DNA of 64,000 nt from positions 192,942-256,941 of the forward strand of contig JAQUQO010000001.1 of NCBI GenBank assembly GCA_028716045.1, written 5' to 3'. A program made the position numbers and the translations under genes. How positions within the stretch are numbered: position 1 is the stretch's first letter; each line of letters opens with the position of its first letter. The notes under the pieces are model-generated. The model saw nothing but the letters and a program-made list of their open reading frames with translations. It was not told the DNA's origin and made no database searches. Shown here one piece after another: positions 5,051 through 51,078 of the stretch. The stretch is from Patescibacteria group bacterium (GTDB lineage: Bacteria > Patescibacteriota > Patescibacteriia > JAQUQO01).

Positions 5051-6640
5051 ATGAATGAAGTAATAAAAATTCCAAAACCGATTGTTCTCATTATTCTTGA
5101 TGGTTGGGGAGTGGCTCCGCCGGGCGCGGGCAATGCCATTACCGAGGCCGATACCCCCAATTTTGATAAAATGGTTAATTCATATCCAGCCATGGTTTTG
5201 AAAGCTTCCGGCGAGGTGGTTGGCTTGGGTGAAGGGGAGGCGGGTAATTCGGAAGCCGGTCATGCTACTATCGGCAGCGGGCGGATTTTTTATAAAGATT
5301 TAGTACGGATTAGCAAAACGATAAGGGAAGGCGTTTTGTTAAAAAACAAAAAATTACTCGGCGCTTTTAAACATGCCGCAAAACATAATTCCGACCTTCA
5401 TTTAGTCGGGCTTTTAAGTGACGGCGGTAAGGAAAGCCACAAAGAACATCTTTACGCCCTTTTAGATATGGCGCGCTCCGTGGGTTGGCAAGGAAAAATT
5501 TTTATCCATGCGCTTTTAGATGGTCGGGATGTGGCTTTTAATTCCGGAGAAGATTTTATCAAGGAATTACTGCAAAAGATGCCGCCGGAAGCGAAAATCA
5601 CTTCTCTTTGTGGGCGTTCTTACGCCCTAGACCGCGATGGCCATTGGGAGAAAACCGAAAAAGCTTATCGGGCCATCAGCGAAGGGAAAAGCGAGAAAAA
5701 TTTCAACGACGCTATCTCCGCCATTGAAAATTTTTATGAAAATAAAATTTACGATGAAGATATCCCGCCAATTGTTTTTACTGATGCTCAGGGGACGCCG
5801 TTGGGAAAGATAAAAGATAATGATGCGGTAATTTTCTTTAATTTCGGAATTAGCCGTCTTGAACAATTAATAAAAGCGTTTGCTGATAAAAGATTCAACA
5901 GTTTTAAAAAACAGCCGTTAAAAAATCTTCATTTGGTTTCTTTTTGGAGCCGAGACAGGGGGCTGGCGCTTTCTTTGCCTTTCCCCCGTGAAGTCGCCAG
6001 ACATTATTTAGCCAAAGAATTAAACGAGGCTGGATTGAAGCAGCTTCATGTTGCCGAAAGCGAAAAGTACGCCCACGCCACTTATTATTTTGACGCTTTT
6101 AACGAGGAAAAGGTAAAGGGAGAGGAGTGGGAGCTAATTCCTTCCAAGGGTTCCACGTGTATTGAAGAGCCGGCGATGAGCGCTCGGGAAATAAAAGACA
6201 GAGTGATACGCGCCATTAACAAAGGAGAAGAGGATTTTATAGTTCTAAATTTTGCCAACGCCGACATGCTCGGCCATTACGGGGATTTGGAGGCGGCCAA
6301 AAAGGGGATTGAAGTTTTGGATAAATGCATCGGAGAAATAAAAGAAACAGTTTTATCTAAAGATGGGGTGTTATTTATTGTTGGTAGCCATGGCAATGCC
6401 GAAGAAATTTTACATAGCGGCACCGGCCAAACGAAAAAGACCCATACCGCCAATCCGGTTCCTTTTCTGATTGTCGGCGATGCTTACGAAGGCAGAACCG
6501 GCGGAGTGGAAGTGCCCGGTGGAGACCTTTCTTTGGTAAAACCAGTCGGGAGTTTAATTGACGTCGCCCCGACCATTTTGAAGGTGATGAATCTAAAAAA
6601 GCCGAAAGAAATGAAGGGCAAATCTTTACTTAATAAATAA
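5051..6640 (+). CDS. gpmI: 2,3-bisphosphoglycerate-independent phosphoglycerate mutase (iPGM), paralog 2 (more canonical)
   Basis: IVLIILDGWGVAPPGAGNAITEADTPNFDKM...GNSEAGHATIGSGRIF; 529 aa. Confidence 0.9.
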   Translation: MNEVIKIPKPIVLIILDGWGVAPPGAGNAITEADTPNFDKMVNSYPAMVLKASGEVVGLGEGEAGNSEAGHATIGSGRIFYKDLVRISKTIREGVLLKNKKLLGAFKHAAKHNSDLHLVGLLSDGGKESHKEHLYALLDMARSVGWQGKIFIHALLDGRDVAFNSGEDFIKELLQKMPPEAKITSLCGRSYALDRDGHWEKTEKAYRAISEGKSEKNFNDAISAIENFYENKIYDEDIPPIVFTDAQGTPLGKIKDNDAVIFFNFGISRLEQLIKAFADKRFNSFKKQPLKNLHLVSFWSRDRGLALSLPFPREVARHYLAKELNEAGLKQLHVAESEKYAHATYYFDAFNEEKVKGEEWELIPSKGSTCIEEPAMSAREIKDRVIRAINKGEEDFIVLNFANADMLGHYGDLEAAKKGIEVLDKCIGEIKETVLSKDGVLFIVGSHGNAEEILHSGTGQTKKTHTANPVPFLIVGDAYEGRTGGVEVPGGDLSLVKPVGSLIDVAPTILKVMNLKKPKEMKGKSLLNK

Positions 6641-9268: not shown

Positions 9269-9326
9269 CTTGACCCGTCGGTCGCGACCGACGGGTCTTG
9301 ACGAAATTGTCAAAATGTGATATATT
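9269..9326 (+). promoter_or_regulatory. Hairpin-promoter module, copy A: cTTGAC-[gacccgtcggtcgcgaccgacgggtc]-TTGACG-17-TATATT
   Basis: Perfect 26-bp palindrome 9272-9297; -35 at 9298-9303; -10 at 9321-9326. Confidence 0.6.
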
Positions 9327-9329
9327 GAA

Positions 9330-9935
9330 ATGTTTTGTACATTACAGCCTGGAGACGTGACAAGTCTGCGGAATTACAAAAAGCTTTCTGATGTTCGCAA
9401 GGTAGTTCGCGGTCAAGCAAAAATCGTGTCCAAGGAGCCTCGTTGGCGCGAAAAAGACGGCGTTATCTATTTCTCGGTGACCTCTGACGGCACAACCGGC
9501 GAAGAGTGGATTAGACGCTTGATAAAGAAAGGCTTCCGTGTGAGCAACTATGCCGAGGACGTGTTATGCTCGTCGGACTTTAAGCCCACAAAAGGCGTCA
9601 CGACCGAGATTGCGGTGCTCAGGGGAAGGCTGTTCAATGACAACGAGCGCTTCACGAAGAATATTTGCGCCGAGGCAGACCGCCGCCACCTGACCGAACC
9701 CAACGCCGAAATCGCCTGTCTCATCCGCGAGATGTTTACGGATGGGGAGCTGGAAGCCATGGGGTTTCGGTGGATTGTTGCCATGCACAAACCCATCAAA
9801 GATTCCTTTGGCATTCAGCGCCTTCTGAGTGTGCACCAGCACGATGATGGTTGTTGGTTGCGTACGTGCTCCGACAGTCGTGGCGACAAGTGGGGTCGTG
9901 ACGATGGTTTCGCGTTCGTTGTCCGCAAGTGGTAG
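9330..9935 (+). CDS. Hypothetical protein encoded in a GC-rich (~53% GC) island; probable horizontally acquired gene. Start uncertain.
   Basis: Sharp GC and codon-usage shift relative to the flanks; several spurious long overlapping ORFs on other frames. The ATG lies only 4 nt after the -10. Confidence 0.5.
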   Translation: MFCTLQPGDVTSLRNYKKLSDVRKVVRGQAKIVSKEPRWREKDGVIYFSVTSDGTTGEEWIRRLIKKGFRVSNYAEDVLCSSDFKPTKGVTTEIAVLRGRLFNDNERFTKNICAEADRRHLTEPNAEIACLIREMFTDGELEAMGFRWIVAMHKPIKDSFGIQRLLSVHQHDDGCWLRTCSDSRGDKWGRDDGFAFVVRKW

Positions 9936-19441: not shown

Positions 19442-19480
19442 AAAAAAATCTCCCCCGTTAAACGGGGGAGATTTTTTATA
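19442..19480 (+). terminator. Rho-independent terminator
   Basis: atctcccccg-ttaaa-cgggggagat then a T-run. Confidence 0.7.
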
Positions 19481-19519: not shown

Positions 19520-19577
19520 CTTGACCCGTCAGTCGCGACTGACGGGTCTTGACAAATCCTTCAAAACATGCTATGAT
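19520..19577 (+). promoter_or_regulatory. Hairpin-promoter module, copy B: cTTGAC-[gacccgtcagtcgcgactgacgggtc]-TTGACA-17-TATGAT
   Basis: Perfect palindrome 19523-19548; consensus -35 and -10 with 17-bp spacing. Confidence 0.6.
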
Positions 19578-19583
19578 ATAACG

Positions 19584-19980
19584 TTATAGTGCCTGGAAAA
19601 TTTAGTTGGCTAAGATTAGCGGAAAGCACTCTTTTGGGATGAAAATTTGGCTATAAATAGAGAAAATATAGCTAAGTTTCCATCCCGAGAGGGATGCCCC
19701 TTCGGGGGTCAAAGCTTATGTTTTGTCTTTTCTGCTATTCAGCCTTTTCCGGCTCTATAACGGATTTGCACATTACTTAAGCCCACAAAATTTTCCCCCC
19801 GAGAAGGAGGGTCAAAATTTAGAAAAGAACGTAGAAAGAGAGTAAAAAAACAATATAGAAATTTAAAGGAAACATTTTTTCATGAGAGTTTTCTCTCACA
19901 AAAAAATATTTTAAGCTTTTTAAGCTTAATAGTTTCCCCTCCAAATTTCTCTTACTCTCCTTTTCCTCTACGTTCTTTTT
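19584..19980 (+). ncRNA. Candidate structured non-coding RNA of unknown class, driven by module B
   Basis: About 400 nt with no ORF of 60 aa or more on either strand. Consensus promoter directly upstream. Local hairpins with GNRA (catccc-GAGA-gggatg) and UUCG (cccc-TTCG-gggg) loops. Long inverted repeat 19815-19845 / 19945-19978. Confidence 0.3.
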
Positions 19981-23247: not shown

Positions 23248-23315
23248 ATGACTGGTCGGGCGAAATTTAAGCCGGGGGTTGATTATAGCGTCTAAAATGA
23301 CGCTTTTTTAAATCG

Positions 23316-23400
23316 CTTGACCCGTTGGTCGCGACCGATGGGTCTTGACCAGTCAGTCGCGACTGACTGGTCTTGACAGATTTTTAGGGTTTGTTATAAT
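23316..23400 (+). promoter_or_regulatory. Hairpin-promoter module, copy C. Tandem double hairpin (23319-23344 and 23347-23372) sharing TTGAC units, then TTGACA-16-TATAAT.
   Basis: First hairpin preserved by two G-T wobble pairs on the + strand. Second hairpin perfect. -10 at 23395-23400. Confidence 0.6.
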
Positions 23401-23552
23401 AAGTTAAAAGTTAATAATTTAGTTAATTTTTAACCACAGACAGCGGGGTCCCGAGCGTTCGGGATTAAACCCAAACCCTGCCGAGGTTAGCAGAAGATAT
23501 TCTTAGTATCTGTGGTTTTTCCGCAGATTTTTTATTTTTAATCCATAAAAAT
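23401..23552 (+). promoter_or_regulatory. Probable L10 (rplJ) leader autoregulatory structure
   Basis: About 150-nt structured leader (ccacagaca...tatctgtgg outer stem with internal GC-rich hairpins) directly upstream of rplJ, as in known L10 leaders. Class assignment is by position, not by covariance model. Confidence 0.4.
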
Positions 23553-27839: not shown

Positions 27840-28250
27840 ATGTTTTTATTTATTAATACAGCCGAAGAAGAGAGATTACTGGCGGGGCTGATTTCCGCTA
27901 CTGGAACAATTTTGAAAGCCGCGGAAATTAAGGAAGGTGCGGAGAGAAGGGAATCGTTGTTAGGGTTGGTTGATAAATTATTATTGGCCAGCAAATTTTT
28001 TTCCGAAAAAATAAAAGGAATTATCGTAGTGACCGGTCCGGGAAGATTTAGCCGTTTGCGGTCAGCTGTTGTTTTAGCCAATACTTTATCTTTCGCTTTG
28101 GGTATCCCCGTGGCTGGAATGAATTTGGAGGAAGTGAAAAATCAAAGCGGTCTTATTAAAAAGGGCATAGCCAAGATTAAAAAAGGAGGGGATACGGTAG
28201 TCGCCCCTTTCTACGGCAAAGAGCCAAACATCACCCGCCGGAAATCTTGA
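27840..28250 (+). CDS. tsaB: Short TsaB (YeaZ)-like protein (t6A biosynthesis partner)
   Basis: IIVVTGPGRFSRLRSAVVLANTLSFALGIPVAG matches the TsaB N-domain GPGSFTGLRIGI..A.GLA region. Confidence 0.55.
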   Translation: MFLFINTAEEERLLAGLISATGTILKAAEIKEGAERRESLLGLVDKLLLASKFFSEKIKGIIVVTGPGRFSRLRSAVVLANTLSFALGIPVAGMNLEEVKNQSGLIKKGIAKIKKGGDTVVAPFYGKEPNITRRKS

Positions 28251-28303
28251 CACGTCGGTCGCGACTGACGTGTCTTGACAAATTCAGCTTTTTATGCTAT
28301 ATT
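28246..28303 (+). promoter_or_regulatory. Hairpin-promoter module, copy D: cTTGAC-[gacacgtcggtcgcgactgacgtgtc]-TTGACA-17-TATATT. The tsaB stop codon lies inside the first TTGAC.
   Basis: Palindrome 28249-28274 closed by one G-T wobble on the + strand; -10 at 28298-28303. Confidence 0.6.
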
Positions 28304-28329: not shown

Positions 28330-28695
28330 ATGAGTTTTGAATTTATGCCAAATAATAGTCAACAATCTTCAGGGTCAAGATCTGAAAGGCCAAGAATTGT
28401 AGAAGCCAAGCTTGAGCAATTATTACCTACGGCACAGGAGATGCTAGATGACCCCGATAAAATTGACACTTATATTAATATGAAGGTTGCTCAGTTAGAC
28501 CCTGTGACCAAGGGGTTACTTAGCGAGGAAACAGGTAAAACCGGCATAAAAAAAGAAGATAGGTTTAGAGAAGCTATACGACGCGCTCTGCCCACTCATT
28601 TAGAGTCCGTGGAGAACTATGGACAAACTAACGAGGCTTTCGAAAAAGCAGTAAACAACGTGATAAGGAAAACCATAGAGGGTTTCAAGATGTAA
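28330..28695 (+). CDS. Hypothetical protein (121 aa)
   Basis: ORF downstream of module D; no family recognised. Confidence 0.5.
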   Translation: MSFEFMPNNSQQSSGSRSERPRIVEAKLEQLLPTAQEMLDDPDKIDTYINMKVAQLDPVTKGLLSEETGKTGIKKEDRFREAIRRALPTHLESVENYGQTNEAFEKAVNNVIRKTIEGFKM

Positions 28696-37703: not shown

Positions 37704-38381
37704 ATGGCAGGAGGGGATAAAAAGTTTAATCGCCAGTCGATTCGTTTAAAAAATTATGATTATAGTGAATCGGGATATTATTTCGTAACGATTTGCGTAC
37801 AAGGTAGTAAATGTTTATTTGGCGAGGTGGTTAATGGTGAGGTGATATTAAATAGTATTGGCGAAATGATTAAAAAATGGTGGCTGGAATTAGAAAATAA
37901 ATTTTTCCGCGTTGAATTAGATAAATTTATTGTAATGCCGAACCATTTTCATGGAATAATAAATATAACCATAGGGATTGTAGGGGCAGACCTGCGTGTC
38001 TGCTCTAATCTTAAAAAGGGCGAACACGTAGGTTCGCCCCTACACAATCGCGAACACGTAGGTTCGCCCCTACACAATCGCGAACACGTAGGTTCGCCCC
38101 TACACAATCGCGAACACGTAGGTTCGCCCCTACATGATATTGTAAAATGGTTTAAAACAATGACGACGAATGAATATATTAAAAATGTTAAACAAGGCGG
38201 TTGGCCGCCATTCGATCGGAGATTATGGCAGCGCAATTATTGGGAGCACGTAATCCGTACCGAAAAATCATTAAATAATATTCGTGAATATATACTGAGC
38301 AATCCCGAAAATTGGAGTGGCGAAGCGGAGGATTTTAATGTATTTGTGGGTAAATTTATTGTTAAATCCGCCGCTTTATGA
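37704..38381 (+). CDS. REP-associated tyrosine transposase (RAYT / IS200-like TnpA_REP) with an in-frame repeat insertion
   Basis: YYFVTICVQG ... MPNHFHGII (HuH) ... RNYWEHV (catalytic Tyr). Decapeptide HVGSPLHNRE repeated about 4 times. Confidence 0.8.
   Translation: MAGGDKKFNRQSIRLKNYDYSESGYYFVTICVQGSKCLFGEVVNGEVILNSIGEMIKKWWLELENKFFRVELDKFIVMPNHFHGIINITIGIVGADLRVCSNLKKGEHVGSPLHNREHVGSPLHNREHVGSPLHNREHVGSPLHDIVKWFKTMTTNEYIKNVKQGGWPPFDRRLWQRNYWEHVIRTEKSLNNIREYILSNPENWSGEAEDFNVFVGKFIVKSAAL
38021..38140 (+). repeat. 3.8 tandem copies of a 30-bp unit (cgaacacgtaggttcgcccctacacaatcg), each containing hairpin gcgaac-acGTAG-gttcgc, embedded in-frame in the RAYT gene
   Basis: Read directly; unit length 30 = 10 codons. 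Confidence 0.9.
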
Positions 38382-46026: not shown

Positions 46027-46097
46027 CTCGGGGGGTTCGTATAATGGTAGTACAGGGGTCTCACCCGTCAGTCGCGACTGACGGGTGTCTCCAAAAC
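46027..46097 (+). pseudogene. Partial 5' copy of tRNA-Trp (acceptor through anticodon loop) with a 25-bp GTCGCGAC-core hairpin (46063-46087) inserted in the anticodon loop
   Basis: ctcggggggttcgtataatggtagtacaggggtctc + acccgtcagtcgcgactgacgggtg + tctccaaaac; the flanking tc(tc) is duplicated. Confidence 0.6.
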
Positions 46098-46101
46098 TTT
46101 T

Positions 46102-46353
46102 ATGTATTATATTTATATTCTACATATAGAAGGGATTAAGGGTAAAAATTTTTATATTGGTTATACTGCGGATTTGAAAAATAGACTTAAGGAACATTTA
46201 CTAGGGAGAGTTAGAACAACCAGAGGTAGAAACCCAAAATTAATTTATTTTGAAGCTTATGGTGGTAAATATCTAGCTTTAAAAAGAGAAAAAGGTTTAA
46301 AAAATAGTGGTTCCGTTTATAATGCCTTGTTGAGACGTTTAAGTTTAAAATAA
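46102..46353 (+). CDS. Small GIY-YIG nuclease-superfamily protein (YhbQ/UPF0213-like)
   Basis: YYIYILH..GIKGKNFYIGYTADLKNRLKEH..G.....RGR.P.L.Y.E......AL..E..LK matches the YhbQ-type GIY-YIG pattern. Confidence 0.7.
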   Translation: MYYIYILHIEGIKGKNFYIGYTADLKNRLKEHLLGRVRTTRGRNPKLIYFEAYGGKYLALKREKGLKNSGSVYNALLRRLSLK

Positions 46354-46359
46354 AAACTC

Positions 46360-46433
46360 GGGGGGTTCGTATAATGGTAGTACAGGGGTCTCCAAAACCT
46401 CTAGCGTGGGTTCGATTCCTACACCCCCTGCCA
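46360..46433 (+). tRNA. tRNA-Trp (anticodon CCA), 3' CCA encoded
   Basis: Acceptor ggggggt/accccct (G1-U72), anticodon loop ctCCAaa, T-loop ttcgatt. Confidence 0.75.
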
Positions 46434-50380: not shown

Positions 50381-50415
50381 GTGGGCGAGAATCCGAATTC
50401 TCGCCCACGTGTTTT
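50381..50415 (+). terminator. Terminator hairpin gggcgagaat-ccga-attctcgccc then a T-run (family shared with 50995-51022)
   Basis: Read directly. Confidence 0.6.
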
Positions 50416-50927: not shown

Positions 50928-50988
50928 ACAATATCACAAACTTAGAAATTTGTCAAGGCCAGTCAGTCGCGACTAACGGGTCAAGCCC
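50928..50988 (-). promoter_or_regulatory. Hairpin-promoter module, copy F (minus strand; degenerate hairpin, TTGACA-17-TATTGT)
   Basis: Reverse complement reads cttgacccgttagtcgcgactgactggccttgacaa...; weaker -10. Confidence 0.4.
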
Positions 50989-50994
50989 TTGTAT

Positions 50995-51022
50995 GAAGGC
51001 GAGAATTCGAATTCTCGCCTTC
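50995..51022. repeat. Hairpin gaaggcgagaat-tcga-attctcgccttc (second member of the gcgagaat family, with compensatory flank changes)
   Basis: Read directly. Confidence 0.5.
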
Positions 51023-51078
51023 ATATTTTGGAACGTTTCCAACCCCAGCCCCTTGTCAGGGGGCCAAAAAGGTCTATC

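What the first reader, a model, noticed from the sequence alone, without database searches (positions are those of the whole stretch)
23316..23400. Recurrent GC-rich hairpin fused to a consensus promoter (TTGAC-[GTCGCGAC-core 26-bp palindrome]-TTGACA-17-TATAAT), seven copies
Copies lie at 9269-9326, 19520-19577, 23316-23400 (tandem double), 28246-28303, 50928-50988 (minus strand, degenerate), and a bare hairpin at 46063-46087.

Each copy has a perfect or near-perfect 26-bp palindrome gacNcgtYRGTCGCGACYRacgNgtc flanked by TTGAC direct repeats. In four copies the 3' TTGAC(A/G) sits exactly 16-17 bp from TATATT, TATGAT, TATAAT and TATATT.

The arms covary between copies (ccgtcg/cgacgg, ccgtca/tgacgg, cagtca/tgactg, acgtcg/tgacgt). 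Two copies keep pairing only through G-T wobbles on the + strand. That points to selection for a single-strand hairpin rather than a fixed duplex protein site. This is the kind of substrate HuH/RAYT transposases use, and a RAYT gene is present at 37704.

The module precedes very different cargo: a GC-rich foreign gene, a candidate ncRNA, the rplJL operon and two small hypotheticals. It is also found inside a tRNA fragment. It therefore behaves like a mobile promoter-carrying miniature element, or the operator of a global regulator.

In this AT-rich genome a 75%-GC palindrome is far from background.
Basis: seen in the sequence. Interest (0 to 1): 0.85.

Follow-up and report, generated by a model that had tools for sequence, protein, structure and literature searches.

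The report
Tiny palindrome inserted beside promoter boxes
A 26-base perfect palindrome from a repeat family found across the ultra-small Patescibacteria has been inserted directly against the -35 box of five promoters in this window; two of them could be compared with relatives and existed before the insertion, so it behaves as a miniature mobile repeat that lands on promoters, not a module that carries one.

Summary
There are seven copies of a 26-bp GC-rich palindrome with core GTCGCGAC, against about 0 expected by chance. Six copies, at five promoters, abut a TTGAC(A/G)-N16-17-TAnnnT promoter. One copy lies in a tRNA-Trp fragment.

Relatives of this Patescibacteria MAG (GCA_028711565.1) keep the same rplJ and tsaB-downstream promoters, spacer included, without the palindrome. 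The promoters are therefore ancestral, and the palindrome is a 28-bp insertion at C|TT|GACA.

Across about 60 distinct instances in other Patescibacteria, the 24-bp core AC..GT is flanked by 4-5 bp direct repeats of at least 11 different sequences (36 of 63; null 3.8). The arms covary strongly. Tandem and nested insertions occur, and the contexts differ: -35 boxes, 5' UTRs and tRNA relics.

The one conserved copy sits in a duplicated 5' half of tRNA-Trp, next to a small GIY-YIG (UPF0213-like) gene. It was present in every cassette sampled.

The RAYT-like gene is not flanked by the palindrome and carries a different hairpin repeat of its own.

Best reading: a new, very small MITE/REP-like element with a preference for the -35 edge. 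The mobilising enzyme and any effect on the promoters are unknown. A regulator operator is not excluded but is disfavoured.

The parts
9272..9297 (+). Copy 1, perfect 26-bp palindrome GACCCGTCGGTCGCGACCGACGGGTC. Flanked by cTT / TTGACG. The -35 is at 9298-9303 and the -10 TATATT at 9321-9326. It precedes ORF 9330-9935.
19523..19548 (+). Copy 2, perfect palindrome GACCCGTCAGTCGCGACTGACGGGTC. The -35 is at 19549-19554 and the -10 TATGAT at 19572-19577. It precedes a ~180-nt rod-like non-coding RNA candidate.
23319..23344 (+). Copy 3a, the upstream member of the tandem pair. It has two G.T pairs on the + strand.
23347..23372 (+). Copy 3b, perfect palindrome of a different variant (CAGTCA/TGACTG). 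The -35 is at 23373-23378 and the -10 TATAAT at 23395-23400. The L10 leader (23416-23543) and rplJ-rplL follow.
28249..28274 (+). Copy 4, with one G.T pair. The -35 is at 28275-28280 and the -10 TATATT at 28298-28303. It precedes ORF 28330-28695. An orthologous empty site is seen in L163.
50957..50982 (-). Copy 5, decayed (three broken pairs). On the minus strand the -35 TTGACA is at 50956-50951 and the -10 TATTGT at 50933-50928. It precedes the 69-aa ORF 50851-50642.
46062..46087 (+). Copy 6, CACCCGTCAGTCGCGACTGACGGGTG, flanked by TCT/TCT. It lies in the anticodon loop of the tRNA-Trp relic. Its inner 20 nt are identical to copy 2.
46030..46097 (+). tRNA-Trp relic: an exact duplicate of tRNA-Trp positions 1 to about 40 (46030-46061 plus 46091-46097), interrupted by copy 6 and a repeated TCT.
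46102..46353 (+). 83-aa GIY-YIG nuclease gene consisting of the catalytic domain only. Its closest solved relative is the UPF0213 protein BH0048. In other Patescibacteria it is always found between the hairpin-bearing relic and the intact tRNA-Trp.
46360..46433 (+). Intact tRNA-Trp (CCA).

Best explanation
The palindrome is a miniature non-autonomous insertion element. It consists of a 24-26 bp perfect inverted repeat and nothing else. It belongs to a repeat family found widely among the Patescibacteria (CPR) sequences recovered.

Shown:
- In this genome, copies have been inserted exactly at the upstream edge of existing sigma-70-type -35 hexamers, at the target C|TT|GACA. The TT (read another way, CTTG) is repeated on both sides. 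That repeat plus the element's own terminal GAC is why TTGAC appears on each side.
- A second insertion at the same junction produced the tandem pair in front of rplJ.
- The promoters are ancestral and are not supplied by the element.

Inferred:
- The -35 association comes from target preference. C-TT-GAC resembles the junction of two abutted element ends. In addition, a 28-bp insertion survives only in the short intergenic regions of this compact genome.
- Symmetry of the two arms is maintained either by the copying mechanism or by selection for a hairpin or cruciform.
- The family's only conserved copy lies in the tRNA-Trp relic next to a small GIY-YIG nuclease gene. It is the likely source of the dispersed copies.
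- The enzyme that moves the element is unidentified. Candidates are the GIY-YIG protein, the RAYT-like Y1 protein, or a transposase encoded elsewhere.
- Each insertion pushes the native AT-rich upstream DNA 28 or 56 bp away from the -35. It may therefore change promoter strength, but no effect has been shown.
For: Empty versus filled sites:
- Relatives with 73% and 64% identical L10 (L163/L164, L166) have the same rplJ promoter. Window: TTGACAgatttttagggtttgtTATAAT. L163: TTGACAgtttttttaggggtgtTATAAT. L166: TTGACAtatttttatcctatgtTATAAT. None has a palindrome upstream.
- L163 has aaagcTTGACAaaat... where the window has aaatcTTGAC[acgtcggtcgcgactgacgtgtcTTGAC]Aaatt.
- No GTCGCGAC palindrome occurs in about 45 kb from three relatives.

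Direct repeats:
- Of 63 distinct instances in low-GC loci, 36 have direct repeats of at least 4 bp around the 24-bp core. Flank shuffles give a mean of 3.8 and a maximum of 11 in 2000.
- At least 11 different repeat sequences occur: CTTG, GTCTC, TAAA, CACG, CAGG, CGGG, TCAA, TGAA, TTAA, CATCG, GCCCC.

Repeated insertion at one site:
- Tandem pairs are made of different variants: window copy 3a versus 3b, and two different cores in the relic of L087/L133.
- L120 has a nested second palindrome with a TCCA repeat.

Contexts differ:
- -35 edges in this genome and in the seven loci from other 50-61% GC assemblies (the identical GACACGTCGGTCGCGACCGACGTGTC, each with cTT on the left and TTGAC plus a -10 16-18 bp downstream).
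- 10-14 nt upstream of ATG in AT-rich lineages.
- tRNA relics and 3' ends of genes.

Other points:
- Covariation: 93.7% of cells are paired, 9 of 11 pairs have changes on both sides, and 0 of 500 shuffles reach this.
- The copy at 50957 has decayed, and genes downstream of promoter-type copies are unrelated to one another, e.g. TopA, an amidohydrolase-like protein and unknowns. This fits a selfish or neutral repeat.
- In four GIY-YIG loci sampled without reference to the palindrome, the relic hairpin is the only copy present. Dispersal is therefore lineage-specific.
Against: - No enzyme has been linked to the element. No full-length element with the same ends separated by a transposase gene was found in about 1.5 Mb of held sequence.
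- An element of 24-26 bp is smaller than any MITE I know of.
- The flanking repeats always begin and end with complementary bases. Neither simple target-site duplication nor a fixed HUH-type target motif explains this (notebook).
- All five dispersed sites in this window share the same target, CTTGAC. A fixed -36 position at 12 promoters in several genomes, with an identical 26-mer in seven loci of other assemblies, is also what a conserved protein-binding site would look like.
- Relative L162 has unexplained TTGAC repeats at exactly the two occupied sites. Its filler sequence is not significantly similar to the element.
- Only two orthologous sites could be compared. Synteny is lost at copy 2.
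- No further copies were found in 19 kb flanking the window in the source contig. The genome-wide census is missing.
Confidence: 0.6

Rival explanations
1. The palindrome is the operator of a lineage-specific global transcription factor (activator or repressor). The factor would bind as a dimer immediately upstream of the -35, centred near -48.5, and co-regulate rplJL, a small RNA and several small proteins.
For: - The position relative to the -35 is fixed in 6 window copies and in 7 loci of other genomes.
- An identical 26-mer occurs in those seven loci, which come from several assemblies with 50-61% GC.
- A tandem pair at a ribosomal-protein promoter could give cooperative binding.
- Mobile repeats can carry protein-binding sites, so this reading is compatible with an insertion origin.
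Against: - Within one genome the half-sites change together. That is expected for a hairpin or a copying mechanism, not for positions a dimer does not contact.
- The same palindrome sits in a tRNA relic, in 5' UTRs and after genes.
- Orthologous promoters in relatives lack it and keep the same -35, spacer and -10.
- Downstream genes share no theme within or between genomes.
- One promoter copy has decayed.
- No regulator gene is adjacent to any copy. ORFs 9330, 28330 and 50642 match no family.
Confidence: 0.15
2. The element is a REP-type repeat mobilised as single-stranded DNA by the RAYT-like Y1 (HUH) transposase at 37704-38381. It would insert 3' of a fixed motif (CTT^G) that the element also carries at its own 3' end, so nothing is actually duplicated.
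For: - A Y1_Tnp / REP_Tyr_transpos-like gene is present.
- The element forms a stable hairpin.
- All dispersed copies in this genome share the same junction motif, C-TT-G(AC), at both ends. Tandem arrays follow naturally from this.
- The G.T pairs are all on one strand.
Against: - The gene scores below the NCBIfam cut-off (58 vs 80 bits).
- It lies 7 bp after the upstream gene's stop and overlaps the ORF called for the downstream holB-like gene. It has no flanking palindrome.
- It contains 3.8 copies of a different 30-nt hairpin repeat, GGCGAAC-ACGTAG-GTTCGCC. If it has a substrate, that repeat looks the better candidate.
- The palindrome is perfect and has no unpaired GTAG or CGTC tag. Its CGTC is paired inside the stem (compare PMC3733652).
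- Within the single metagenome contig Ga0209417_1000094, the flanking repeats differ (TCAA, TAAA, none). That argues they come from the target and are not carried by the element.
- No RAYT homologue was found in any other held locus that carries the palindrome.
Confidence: 0.08
3. The palindrome is the substrate of the neighbouring GIY-YIG nuclease. The relic-hairpin-GIY-YIG unit at tRNA-Trp would be the master copy, and the nuclease's short staggered cuts would seed the dispersed copies. This would be a hairpin/GIY-YIG counterpart of REP/RAYT.
For: - In every one of more than 20 loci holding this GIY-YIG gene, a 26-nt hairpin of this family lies in the tRNA-Trp relic. It lies 14-35 nt upstream of the ORF in most; in L059/L126 (and in L117 and L120) the ORF precedes the relic hairpin. 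The four loci sampled through the protein alone are included.
- The stem varies by compensatory changes: cores AGTCGCGACT, GCTCGCGAGC, GCTCGTGAGC.
- The inner 20 nt of the window's relic copy equal dispersed copy 2.
- From general knowledge, GIY-YIG enzymes make cuts staggered by 1-2 nt. That is compatible with short flanking repeats.
Against: - No dispersed copy is next to a GIY-YIG gene, and the window holds only one such gene.
- Genomes with the cassette usually have no dispersed copies. The cassette alone is therefore not sufficient for dispersal.
- The protein is a bare 83-aa catalytic domain of the UPF0213 type, whose function is unknown.
- No biochemistry is available.
Confidence: 0.12
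4. The whole 58-bp module (TTGAC-palindrome-TTGACA-17-TATAAT) is a mobile element that brings a promoter with it. Alternatively, the hairpin is a terminator or insulator for the upstream gene.
For: - Copies precede unrelated genes.
- A GC-rich hairpin lies between genes.
Against: - Spacer and -10 sequences differ between copies. They match the orthologous promoters of relatives that lack the palindrome.
- Separate canonical terminators with T-runs already lie upstream of copies 2 and 3 (19443-19477, 23288-23310). The palindrome itself has no T-run.
Confidence: 0.03

Closest known systems
REP / REPIN repeats with RAYT transposases (enterobacteria, Pseudomonas); GTAG- and CGTC-tagged REP super-families (Di Nocera et al. 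2013, PMC3733652)
   Same: Short (20-40 bp), GC-rich, extragenic, hairpin-forming repeats dispersed in a compact genome. They sometimes occur in tandem or clustered. A Y1 transposase-like gene is present in the same genome.
   Different: - REPs are imperfect palindromes with an unpaired GTAG or CGTC tag and a loop. This element is a perfect palindrome with zero spacer, and its CGTC is paired.
- REPs lie mostly downstream of genes. These copies lie at the -35 edge.
- RAYT genes are flanked by their REPs. This one is not.
- These copies have variable 4-5 bp flanking direct repeats.
MITEs such as Neisseria Correia elements
   Same: Non-autonomous, with terminal inverted repeats, short target duplications, presence/absence polymorphism between relatives, and insertion next to genes where promoters can be affected.
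   Different: - Correia elements are 100-155 bp, duplicate TA, and themselves carry promoter and IHF sequences (from my own knowledge).
- This element is 24-26 bp, has no internal sequence, and lands beside a promoter that already exists.
- No parent IS was found.
IS5-type insertion at a symmetric 4-bp target (YTAR/CTAG) with 4-bp duplication; abutted-end junctions of IS30/IS3-family circles
   Same: - The flanking repeats here are Y-NN-R tetramers with complementary outer bases (CTTG, CACG, TAAA, TCAA and others).
- The element looks like two terminal repeats abutted, and the preferred target C-TT-GAC resembles such a junction.
   Different: The resemblance is recalled from the literature and was not tested. 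No transposase of these families was seen. The inner two bases are not fixed. Repeats of 5 bp also occur.
IS200/IS605 family and their palindrome-associated derivatives (PATEs)
   Same: Hairpin-dependent, strand-specific, with insertion next to a short specific motif that also occurs at the element's end. They are Y1 HUH enzymes.
   Different: Those elements have two different sub-terminal imperfect hairpins and give no duplication. Here there is one perfect palindrome, and the flanks vary within one genome.
CIRCE/HrcA-type conserved inverted-repeat operators
   Same: A perfect inverted repeat conserved across a phylum and positioned at promoters.
   Different: CIRCE has a 9-bp spacer, a fixed chaperone regulon and a known repressor, and orthologous promoters retain it. 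None of these holds here.
Free-standing GIY-YIG homing endonuclease genes in tRNA clusters (phage T4 SegB)
   Same: A GIY-YIG gene embedded among tRNA genes. Duplicated tRNA sequence around it would allow it to be copied by break repair while leaving the tRNA intact.
   Different: The protein here has only the catalytic domain (UPF0213-like) and no DNA-binding domain. The intact tRNA beside it would still be a target. The obligatory hairpin in the relic has no counterpart in T4.

Membership tests
REP/RAYT system | A RAYT (Y1 HUH) gene that meets the family threshold | tested here: inconclusive
   Pfam Y1_Tnp scores 25.2 bits against a cut-off of 23. NCBIfam REP_Tyr_transpos scores 58.4 bits against a cut-off of 80.
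REP/RAYT system | The RAYT gene is flanked by its cognate REPs | tested here: not met
   The gene at 37704-38381 starts 7 bp after the upstream gene's stop and overlaps the next ORF. No GTCGCGAC palindrome lies within 8 kb.
REP/RAYT system | An imperfect palindrome with an unpaired GTAG or CGTC tag at one end | tested here: not met
   The palindrome is perfect with zero spacer. Its CGTC at positions 5-8 pairs with GACG. Family definition from PMC3733652.
REP/RAYT system | No target-site duplication | tested here: not met
   Direct repeats of 4-5 bp flank 36 of 63 instances; the shuffle null is 3.8.
MITE (non-autonomous TIR element) | Terminal inverted repeats | tested here: met
   The element consists of two abutted 12-13 bp inverted repeats.
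MITE (non-autonomous TIR element) | Short target-site duplications whose sequence varies | tested here: met
   At least 11 different flanking repeats. Their complementary outer bases remain unexplained.
MITE (non-autonomous TIR element) | Presence/absence at orthologous sites | tested here: met
   rplJ promoter: absent in L163 and L166. tsaB-downstream promoter: absent in L163.
MITE (non-autonomous TIR element) | A parent autonomous element with the same ends | tested here: not met
   No separated half-sites bracketing a gene were found in the window or in about 170 held loci. Whole genomes were not searched.
IS200/IS605-type (PATE) | Insertion 3' of one fixed tetra- or pentanucleotide, without duplication | tested here: inconclusive
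   Within this genome the data fit CTT^G. Within contig Ga0209417_1000094 the flanks differ.
Transcription-factor operator | Fixed position relative to the promoter | tested here: met
   The palindrome always abuts the -35: 6 window copies and 7 loci elsewhere.
Transcription-factor operator | Retained at orthologous promoters, with a coherent regulon | tested here: not met
   Absent from orthologous promoters of relatives. The downstream genes are unrelated to one another.
Transcription-factor operator | A cognate DNA-binding protein | not testable with these tools
   No adjacent regulator gene was seen. A pull-down or EMSA is needed.
Promoter-carrying mobile element (Correia-like) | The element supplies the -35 and/or the -10 | tested here: not met
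   Empty sites keep TTGACA-17-TATAAT/TATTAT with a homologous spacer.
Intrinsic terminator | A GC-rich stem followed by a T-run | tested here: not met
   TTGAC follows the stem. Separate T-run terminators lie upstream.
Free-standing GIY-YIG homing endonuclease (for 46030-46433) | A GIY-YIG catalytic domain plus a DNA-binding domain, with sporadic presence at the target gene | tested here: inconclusive
   The catalytic domain is present (PF01541, 3e-11). The protein is only 83 aa and has no second domain; its best PDB match is the UPF0213 protein 1zg2. Sporadic presence was not testable because loci were sampled through the protein or the hairpin.

The most novel reading that the evidence does not exclude
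The palindrome and the 83-aa GIY-YIG protein form a previously undescribed mobile pair in Patescibacteria, a hairpin/GIY-YIG analogue of REP/RAYT. The master copy would be kept in a duplicated 5' half of tRNA-Trp. The bare 24-26 bp hairpin would be copied to new sites with 4-5 bp repeats. In some lineages it colonises the C|TT|GAC edge of -35 boxes, rewiring the upstream promoter DNA of core genes such as rplJL.
Probability: 0.12. Interest if true: 0.85.

Novelty: new variant of a known kind. Interest (0 to 1): 0.58.

Why it matters
If this reading is right, the element is, as far as I know, among the smallest insertion elements described: two abutted 12-13 bp ends with no internal sequence. 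It lives in bacteria whose sub-megabase genomes are thought to carry few repeats.

Its preference for the edge of -35 hexamers would make it a natural, repeated perturbation of promoter-upstream DNA, including at a ribosomal-protein operon. That effect can be tested directly by comparing filled and precisely emptied promoters.

The family also gives a handle on an unstudied arrangement that recurred in every Patescibacteria locus recovered with this GIY-YIG gene or with the relic hairpin. Small GIY-YIG genes sit between a hairpin-bearing 5' relic of a tRNA gene and the intact tRNA. This may be a way for a nuclease gene to spread into tRNA genes without an intron.

In practice, these palindromes break assemblies. 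One Logan contig ends inside the tandem pair. They can also be misread as regulatory motifs.

Tried and rejected
- Known RNA families: nothing in Rfam beyond tRNAs and the L10 leader. The hairpin gives only sub-threshold miRNA noise.
- Literature: searches for GTCGCGAC, for CPR/Patescibacteria palindromes, MITEs, REPs and regulon motifs, and for GIY-YIG with Patescibacteria found no description.
- Virus contigs: no exact match to the pattern.
- CGTC-tagged REP membership: rejected after reading PMC3733652.
- CRISPR repeat, integron attC and a dif-like recombination site (10+6+10 architecture): considered and rejected by reasoning. There are no spacers and no extrahelical bases. Seven directly oriented recombination sites within 64 kb would delete essential genes.
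- Full-length parent element: not found.
- Decayed copies in relative L162: the filler between its TTGAC repeats is not significantly similar to the element (p 0.34-0.46).
- Empty-site test for copy 2: failed, because synteny after metK is not conserved in relatives.
- Out-of-sample test in 19 kb flanking the window: no further copies, so uninformative.
- The genome-contig scan returned mostly chance hits in GC-rich genomes, and the source genome is not in that collection. The internal control was weaker than hoped. All five free positions were complementary in 9 of 20 hits from loci with GC below 0.58, against 6 of 64 from loci with higher GC.
Full report
**1. Observation**

All seven GTCGCGAC octamers in the 64-kb window lie inside the copies, against 0.30 expected. 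The 26-mer pattern with up to three mismatches finds exactly these seven, against 0.00 expected.

The palindromes are at 9272-9297, 19523-19548, 23319-23344 and 23347-23372 (tandem, period 28), 28249-28274, 46062-46087 and 50957-50982.

Six copies, at five promoters, abut a promoter of the form TTGAC(A/G)-16/17-TAnnnT. Each is preceded by cTT, so TTGAC reads on both sides.

As single-stranded DNA the intact copies fold at -10 to -14 kcal/mol. The minus-strand copy has three broken pairs and no longer folds.

**2. Source and surroundings**

The window comes from contig JAQTRY010000001.1 (812 kb) of GCA_028711565.1, annotated as a Patescibacteria group bacterium. GC content is about 41%. GC skew is positive throughout, and most genes are on the + strand.

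The copies precede these features:
- an unannotatable 201-aa ORF with 53% GC;
- a non-coding stretch of about 400 nt whose first ~180 nt fold into a long rod (z -5.6);
- the L10 leader and rplJ-rplL;
- a 121-aa ORF and a 69-aa ORF with no family match.

Upstream of copies 2 and 3 there are separate terminators with T-runs. The palindrome is therefore not the terminator.

**3. The promoters are older than the palindrome**

Relatives with 73% identical L10 (L162; L163/L164/L165) and 64% identical L10 (L166) share the gene order rplJ-rplL-(850 aa, minus strand)-(215 aa)-tsaB-(113 aa).

Their rplJ promoters align with the window's from the -35 onward, including the spacer:
- window: TTGACAgatttttagggtttgtTATAAT
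- L162: TTGACAgatttttggggtatgtTATAAT
- L163: TTGACAgtttttttaggggtgtTATAAT
- L166: TTGACAtatttttatcctatgtTATAAT

None of the relatives has the palindrome. The window has two 28-bp units immediately 5' of the -35.

At the tsaB-downstream promoter, L163 reads aaagcTTGACAaaatcg. The window reads aaatcTTGAC[acgtcggtcgcgactgacgtgtcTTGAC]Aaattc.

No GTCGCGAC palindrome occurs in about 45 kb from these relatives.

It also shows that the element does not bring the promoter with it.

L162 is odd. It has TTGAC three times upstream of rplJ, and TTGAC-31 nt-TTGACA at the other site. The filler is not significantly similar to the element, so I leave this unexplained.

**4. A family found across Patescibacteria**

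Scans of one genome per species and of JGI metagenomes with degenerate patterns returned many chance hits in GC-rich genomes. They also returned about 60 distinct true palindromes in low-GC loci. Those carrying a taxon label are mostly named Patescibacteria or candidate phyla within it: Moranbacteria, Uhrbacteria, Parcubacteria. There were none in virus contigs.

The contexts differ:
- (i) CAC..GTG copies flanked by TCT, in a tRNA-Trp fragment.
- (ii) The identical GACACGTCGGTCGCGACCGACGTGTC at seven loci in assemblies with 50-61% GC. Each has cTT on the left, and TTGAC plus a -10 16-18 bp downstream on the right.
- (iii) AAC..GTT copies in AT-rich genomes, 10-14 nt upstream of start codons and downstream of a TATAAT.
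- (iv) TAC..GTA copies embedded in longer palindromes.

Over 36 distinct 26-mers, 93.7% of cells are paired. Nine of 11 pairs show changes on both sides, and 0 of 500 shuffles reach the observed covariation.

**5. Insertion signatures**

Taking the 24-bp core AC..GT as the unit, 36 of 63 distinct instances have direct repeats of at least 4 bp on both sides. Flank shuffles give a mean of 3.8 and a maximum of 11 in 2000.

At least 11 different repeat sequences occur: CTTG, GTCTC, TAAA, CACG, CAGG, CGGG, TCAA, TGAA, TTAA, CATCG, GCCCC.

Tandem pairs are built from different variants:
- window copies 3a and 3b differ at three symmetric positions;
- L087/L133 have two different cores side by side, each followed by TCT.

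L120 has a second palindrome nested with a TCCA repeat.

Within the single metagenome contig Ga0209417_1000094, the repeats differ (TCAA, TAAA, none). This fits target-derived duplication better than a motif carried by the element.

One regularity is unexplained. The repeats always begin and end with complementary bases, and that is why the palindrome reads as 26 bp.

**6. Why the -35?**

All 12 promoter-type sites, in the window and elsewhere, have the same junction: C|TT|GAC.

The window holds 165 TTGAC pentamers and 17 sites of the form TTGAC-N16-18-TAnnnT. Five of those 17 are occupied.

I infer two causes:
- a target preference for C-TT-GAC, which resembles the junction of two abutted element ends (GTC-TT-GAC);
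- survival only in intergenic DNA, since a 28-bp insertion in a gene shifts the reading frame, and in this compact genome an intergenic TTGAC is usually a -35 box.

The insertion replaces the AT-rich DNA just upstream of the -35 with GC-rich DNA. It moves the former upstream sequence 28 or 56 bp away. An effect on promoter strength is plausible but untested.

**7. The tRNA-Trp copy**

The region 46030-46097 is an exact duplicate of the first ~40 nt of the tRNA-Trp gene at 46360-46433. It is interrupted in the anticodon loop by the hairpin plus a repeated TCT. An 83-aa GIY-YIG ORF follows at 46102-46353.

The same arrangement occurs in every related locus examined: an L33 gene where the upstream sequence is held, then relic with hairpin, GIY-YIG, and intact tRNA-Trp; in L059/L126 the GIY-YIG ORF precedes the relic. 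That is more than 20 loci, including four retrieved through the protein alone. In those four the hairpin core differs but the stem is preserved (AGTCGCGACT, GCTCGCGAGC, GCTCGTGAGC), and no dispersed copies are present.

In L001 the relic differs from the resident tRNA. In most other loci it is identical to the resident tRNA.

Similar GIY-YIG cassettes with other hairpins sit at tRNA-Thr and tRNA-Tyr.

The protein is a bare catalytic domain, closest to the UPF0213 protein BH0048.

The relic hairpin is thus the conserved member of the family. Dispersal to promoters, as in this genome, is lineage-specific. The inner 20 nt of the window's relic copy equal dispersed copy 2. Whether the nuclease acts on the hairpin is unknown.

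**8. The RAYT lead**

The ORF at 37704-38381 is a weak Y1/REP-transposase relative. It is packed into an operon with no flanking palindrome. It contains 3.8 perfect in-frame copies of a 30-nt unit that has its own hairpin, GGCGAAC-ACGTAG-GTTCGCC. No homologue was found in the other palindrome-bearing loci.

The G.T pairs cited as evidence for single-strand selection are all C-to-T changes on the + strand. That strand has positive GC skew, so mutation bias is a sufficient explanation.

The RAYT link is therefore possible but unsupported.

**9. Operator rival**

A fixed position at -36, and an identical 26-mer in seven loci from several assemblies, would suit a conserved binding site. Five observations count against it:
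- symmetric co-variation within one genome;
- copies in non-promoter contexts;
- absence from orthologous promoters;
- unrelated downstream genes, e.g. TopA, an amidohydrolase-like protein and unknowns;
- one decayed copy.

The two ideas are not exclusive, because a mobile repeat can be bound by a host protein.

**10. Comparison with known elements, and verdict**

The element works most like a MITE or REP. It fails the defining tests of REP/RAYT: no tag, not imperfect, RAYT not flanked, and flanking repeats present. It also lacks the parent element and the size of a classical MITE.

Nothing matching was found in Rfam or in the searchable literature.

I rate it a new variant of a known kind. 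It is a 24-26 bp palindromic insertion element of Patescibacteria with a preference for the -35 edge. A conserved founder copy lies in a GIY-YIG/tRNA-Trp cassette. Confidence in the insertion-element reading is about 0.6. The enzyme and any regulatory consequence remain open.

Noticed in passing
window 46030-46433; L001, L024, L040, L056, L059, L073, L167, L169, L171, L172 and many metagenome loci: A conserved cassette in diverse Patescibacteria: the 5' half of tRNA-Trp duplicated, a 26-nt hairpin in its anticodon loop, an 83-aa GIY-YIG gene, then the intact tRNA-Trp. The relic is usually identical to the resident tRNA, but in L001 it differs. In L167 and L169 the relic carries further hairpin insertions in the D-loop.
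   Followed up: partly
L040 (reverse strand, about 5350-6200 of the reversed locus); L167 8050-8600; L059 3100-3560: The same architecture at other tRNA genes. GIY-YIG paralogues are preceded by 5' relics of tRNA-Thr or tRNA-Tyr carrying unrelated hairpins (ccccgcaaatgcgggg, tcccgccttggcggga). L040 also has a tRNA-Thr(TGT)-like gene apparently split by an insert that contains an intact tRNA-Thr(TGT).
   Followed up: no
window 38020-38134: 3.8 perfect in-frame copies of the 30-nt unit GCGAACACGTAGGTTCGCCCCTACACAATC inside the RAYT-like ORF (protein repeat EHVGSPLHNR). Each unit holds the hairpin GGCGAAC-ACGTAG-GTTCGCC. The motif occurs nowhere else in the window.
   Followed up: partly
window 19583-19765 (up to about 19980): The promoter behind copy 2 drives a non-coding region. 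Its first ~180 nt fold into a long irregular rod (268 nt: -91.5 kcal/mol, z -5.6). There is no Rfam hit, no ORF over 40 aa and no similar sequence in the held loci. It is a 6S-like RNA candidate.
   Followed up: partly
window 50381-50408 and 50992-51025: A second perfect-palindrome family with core GGCGAGAAT(C/T)CGAATTCTCGCC. It has two copies, bracketing the small-ORF region beside copy 5. They lie after the LOG-family gene and after dus, and probably act as terminators.
   Followed up: no
window 9330-9935: A 201-aa ORF with 53% GC in a 41% GC window. It matches nothing in Pfam, NCBIfam or PHROGs, and may be foreign.
   Followed up: partly
L162 1780-1840 and 7520-7570: A relative without the palindrome carries TTGAC three times upstream of rplJ (spacing 12 and 14) and TTGAC-31 nt-TTGACA upstream of the orf28330 homologue. 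These are exactly the two sites occupied in the window. The filler is not significantly similar to the element.
   Followed up: yes
L110, L111, L116, L143, L145, L158, L091, L129 (AT-rich metagenome loci): AAC..GTT members of the family lie 10-14 nt upstream of start codons and downstream of a TATAAT. They keep a constant asymmetry at pair 5-22: C.A on one strand and G.T on the other.
   Followed up: no
L120 around 980-1050; L001 590-690: Other palindrome families with a CGCG centre (TCCAGCCGTCCGCGAACGGCTGGA; cores TTCGCGAA and ATCGCGAT) are nested in, or next to, tRNA-Trp relics.
   Followed up: no
L086 (Logan SRR22315506 contig), position 1: An independent assembly of the same organism breaks exactly inside the tandem palindrome pair upstream of rplJ. 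The repeat disrupts short-read assembly.
   Followed up: no
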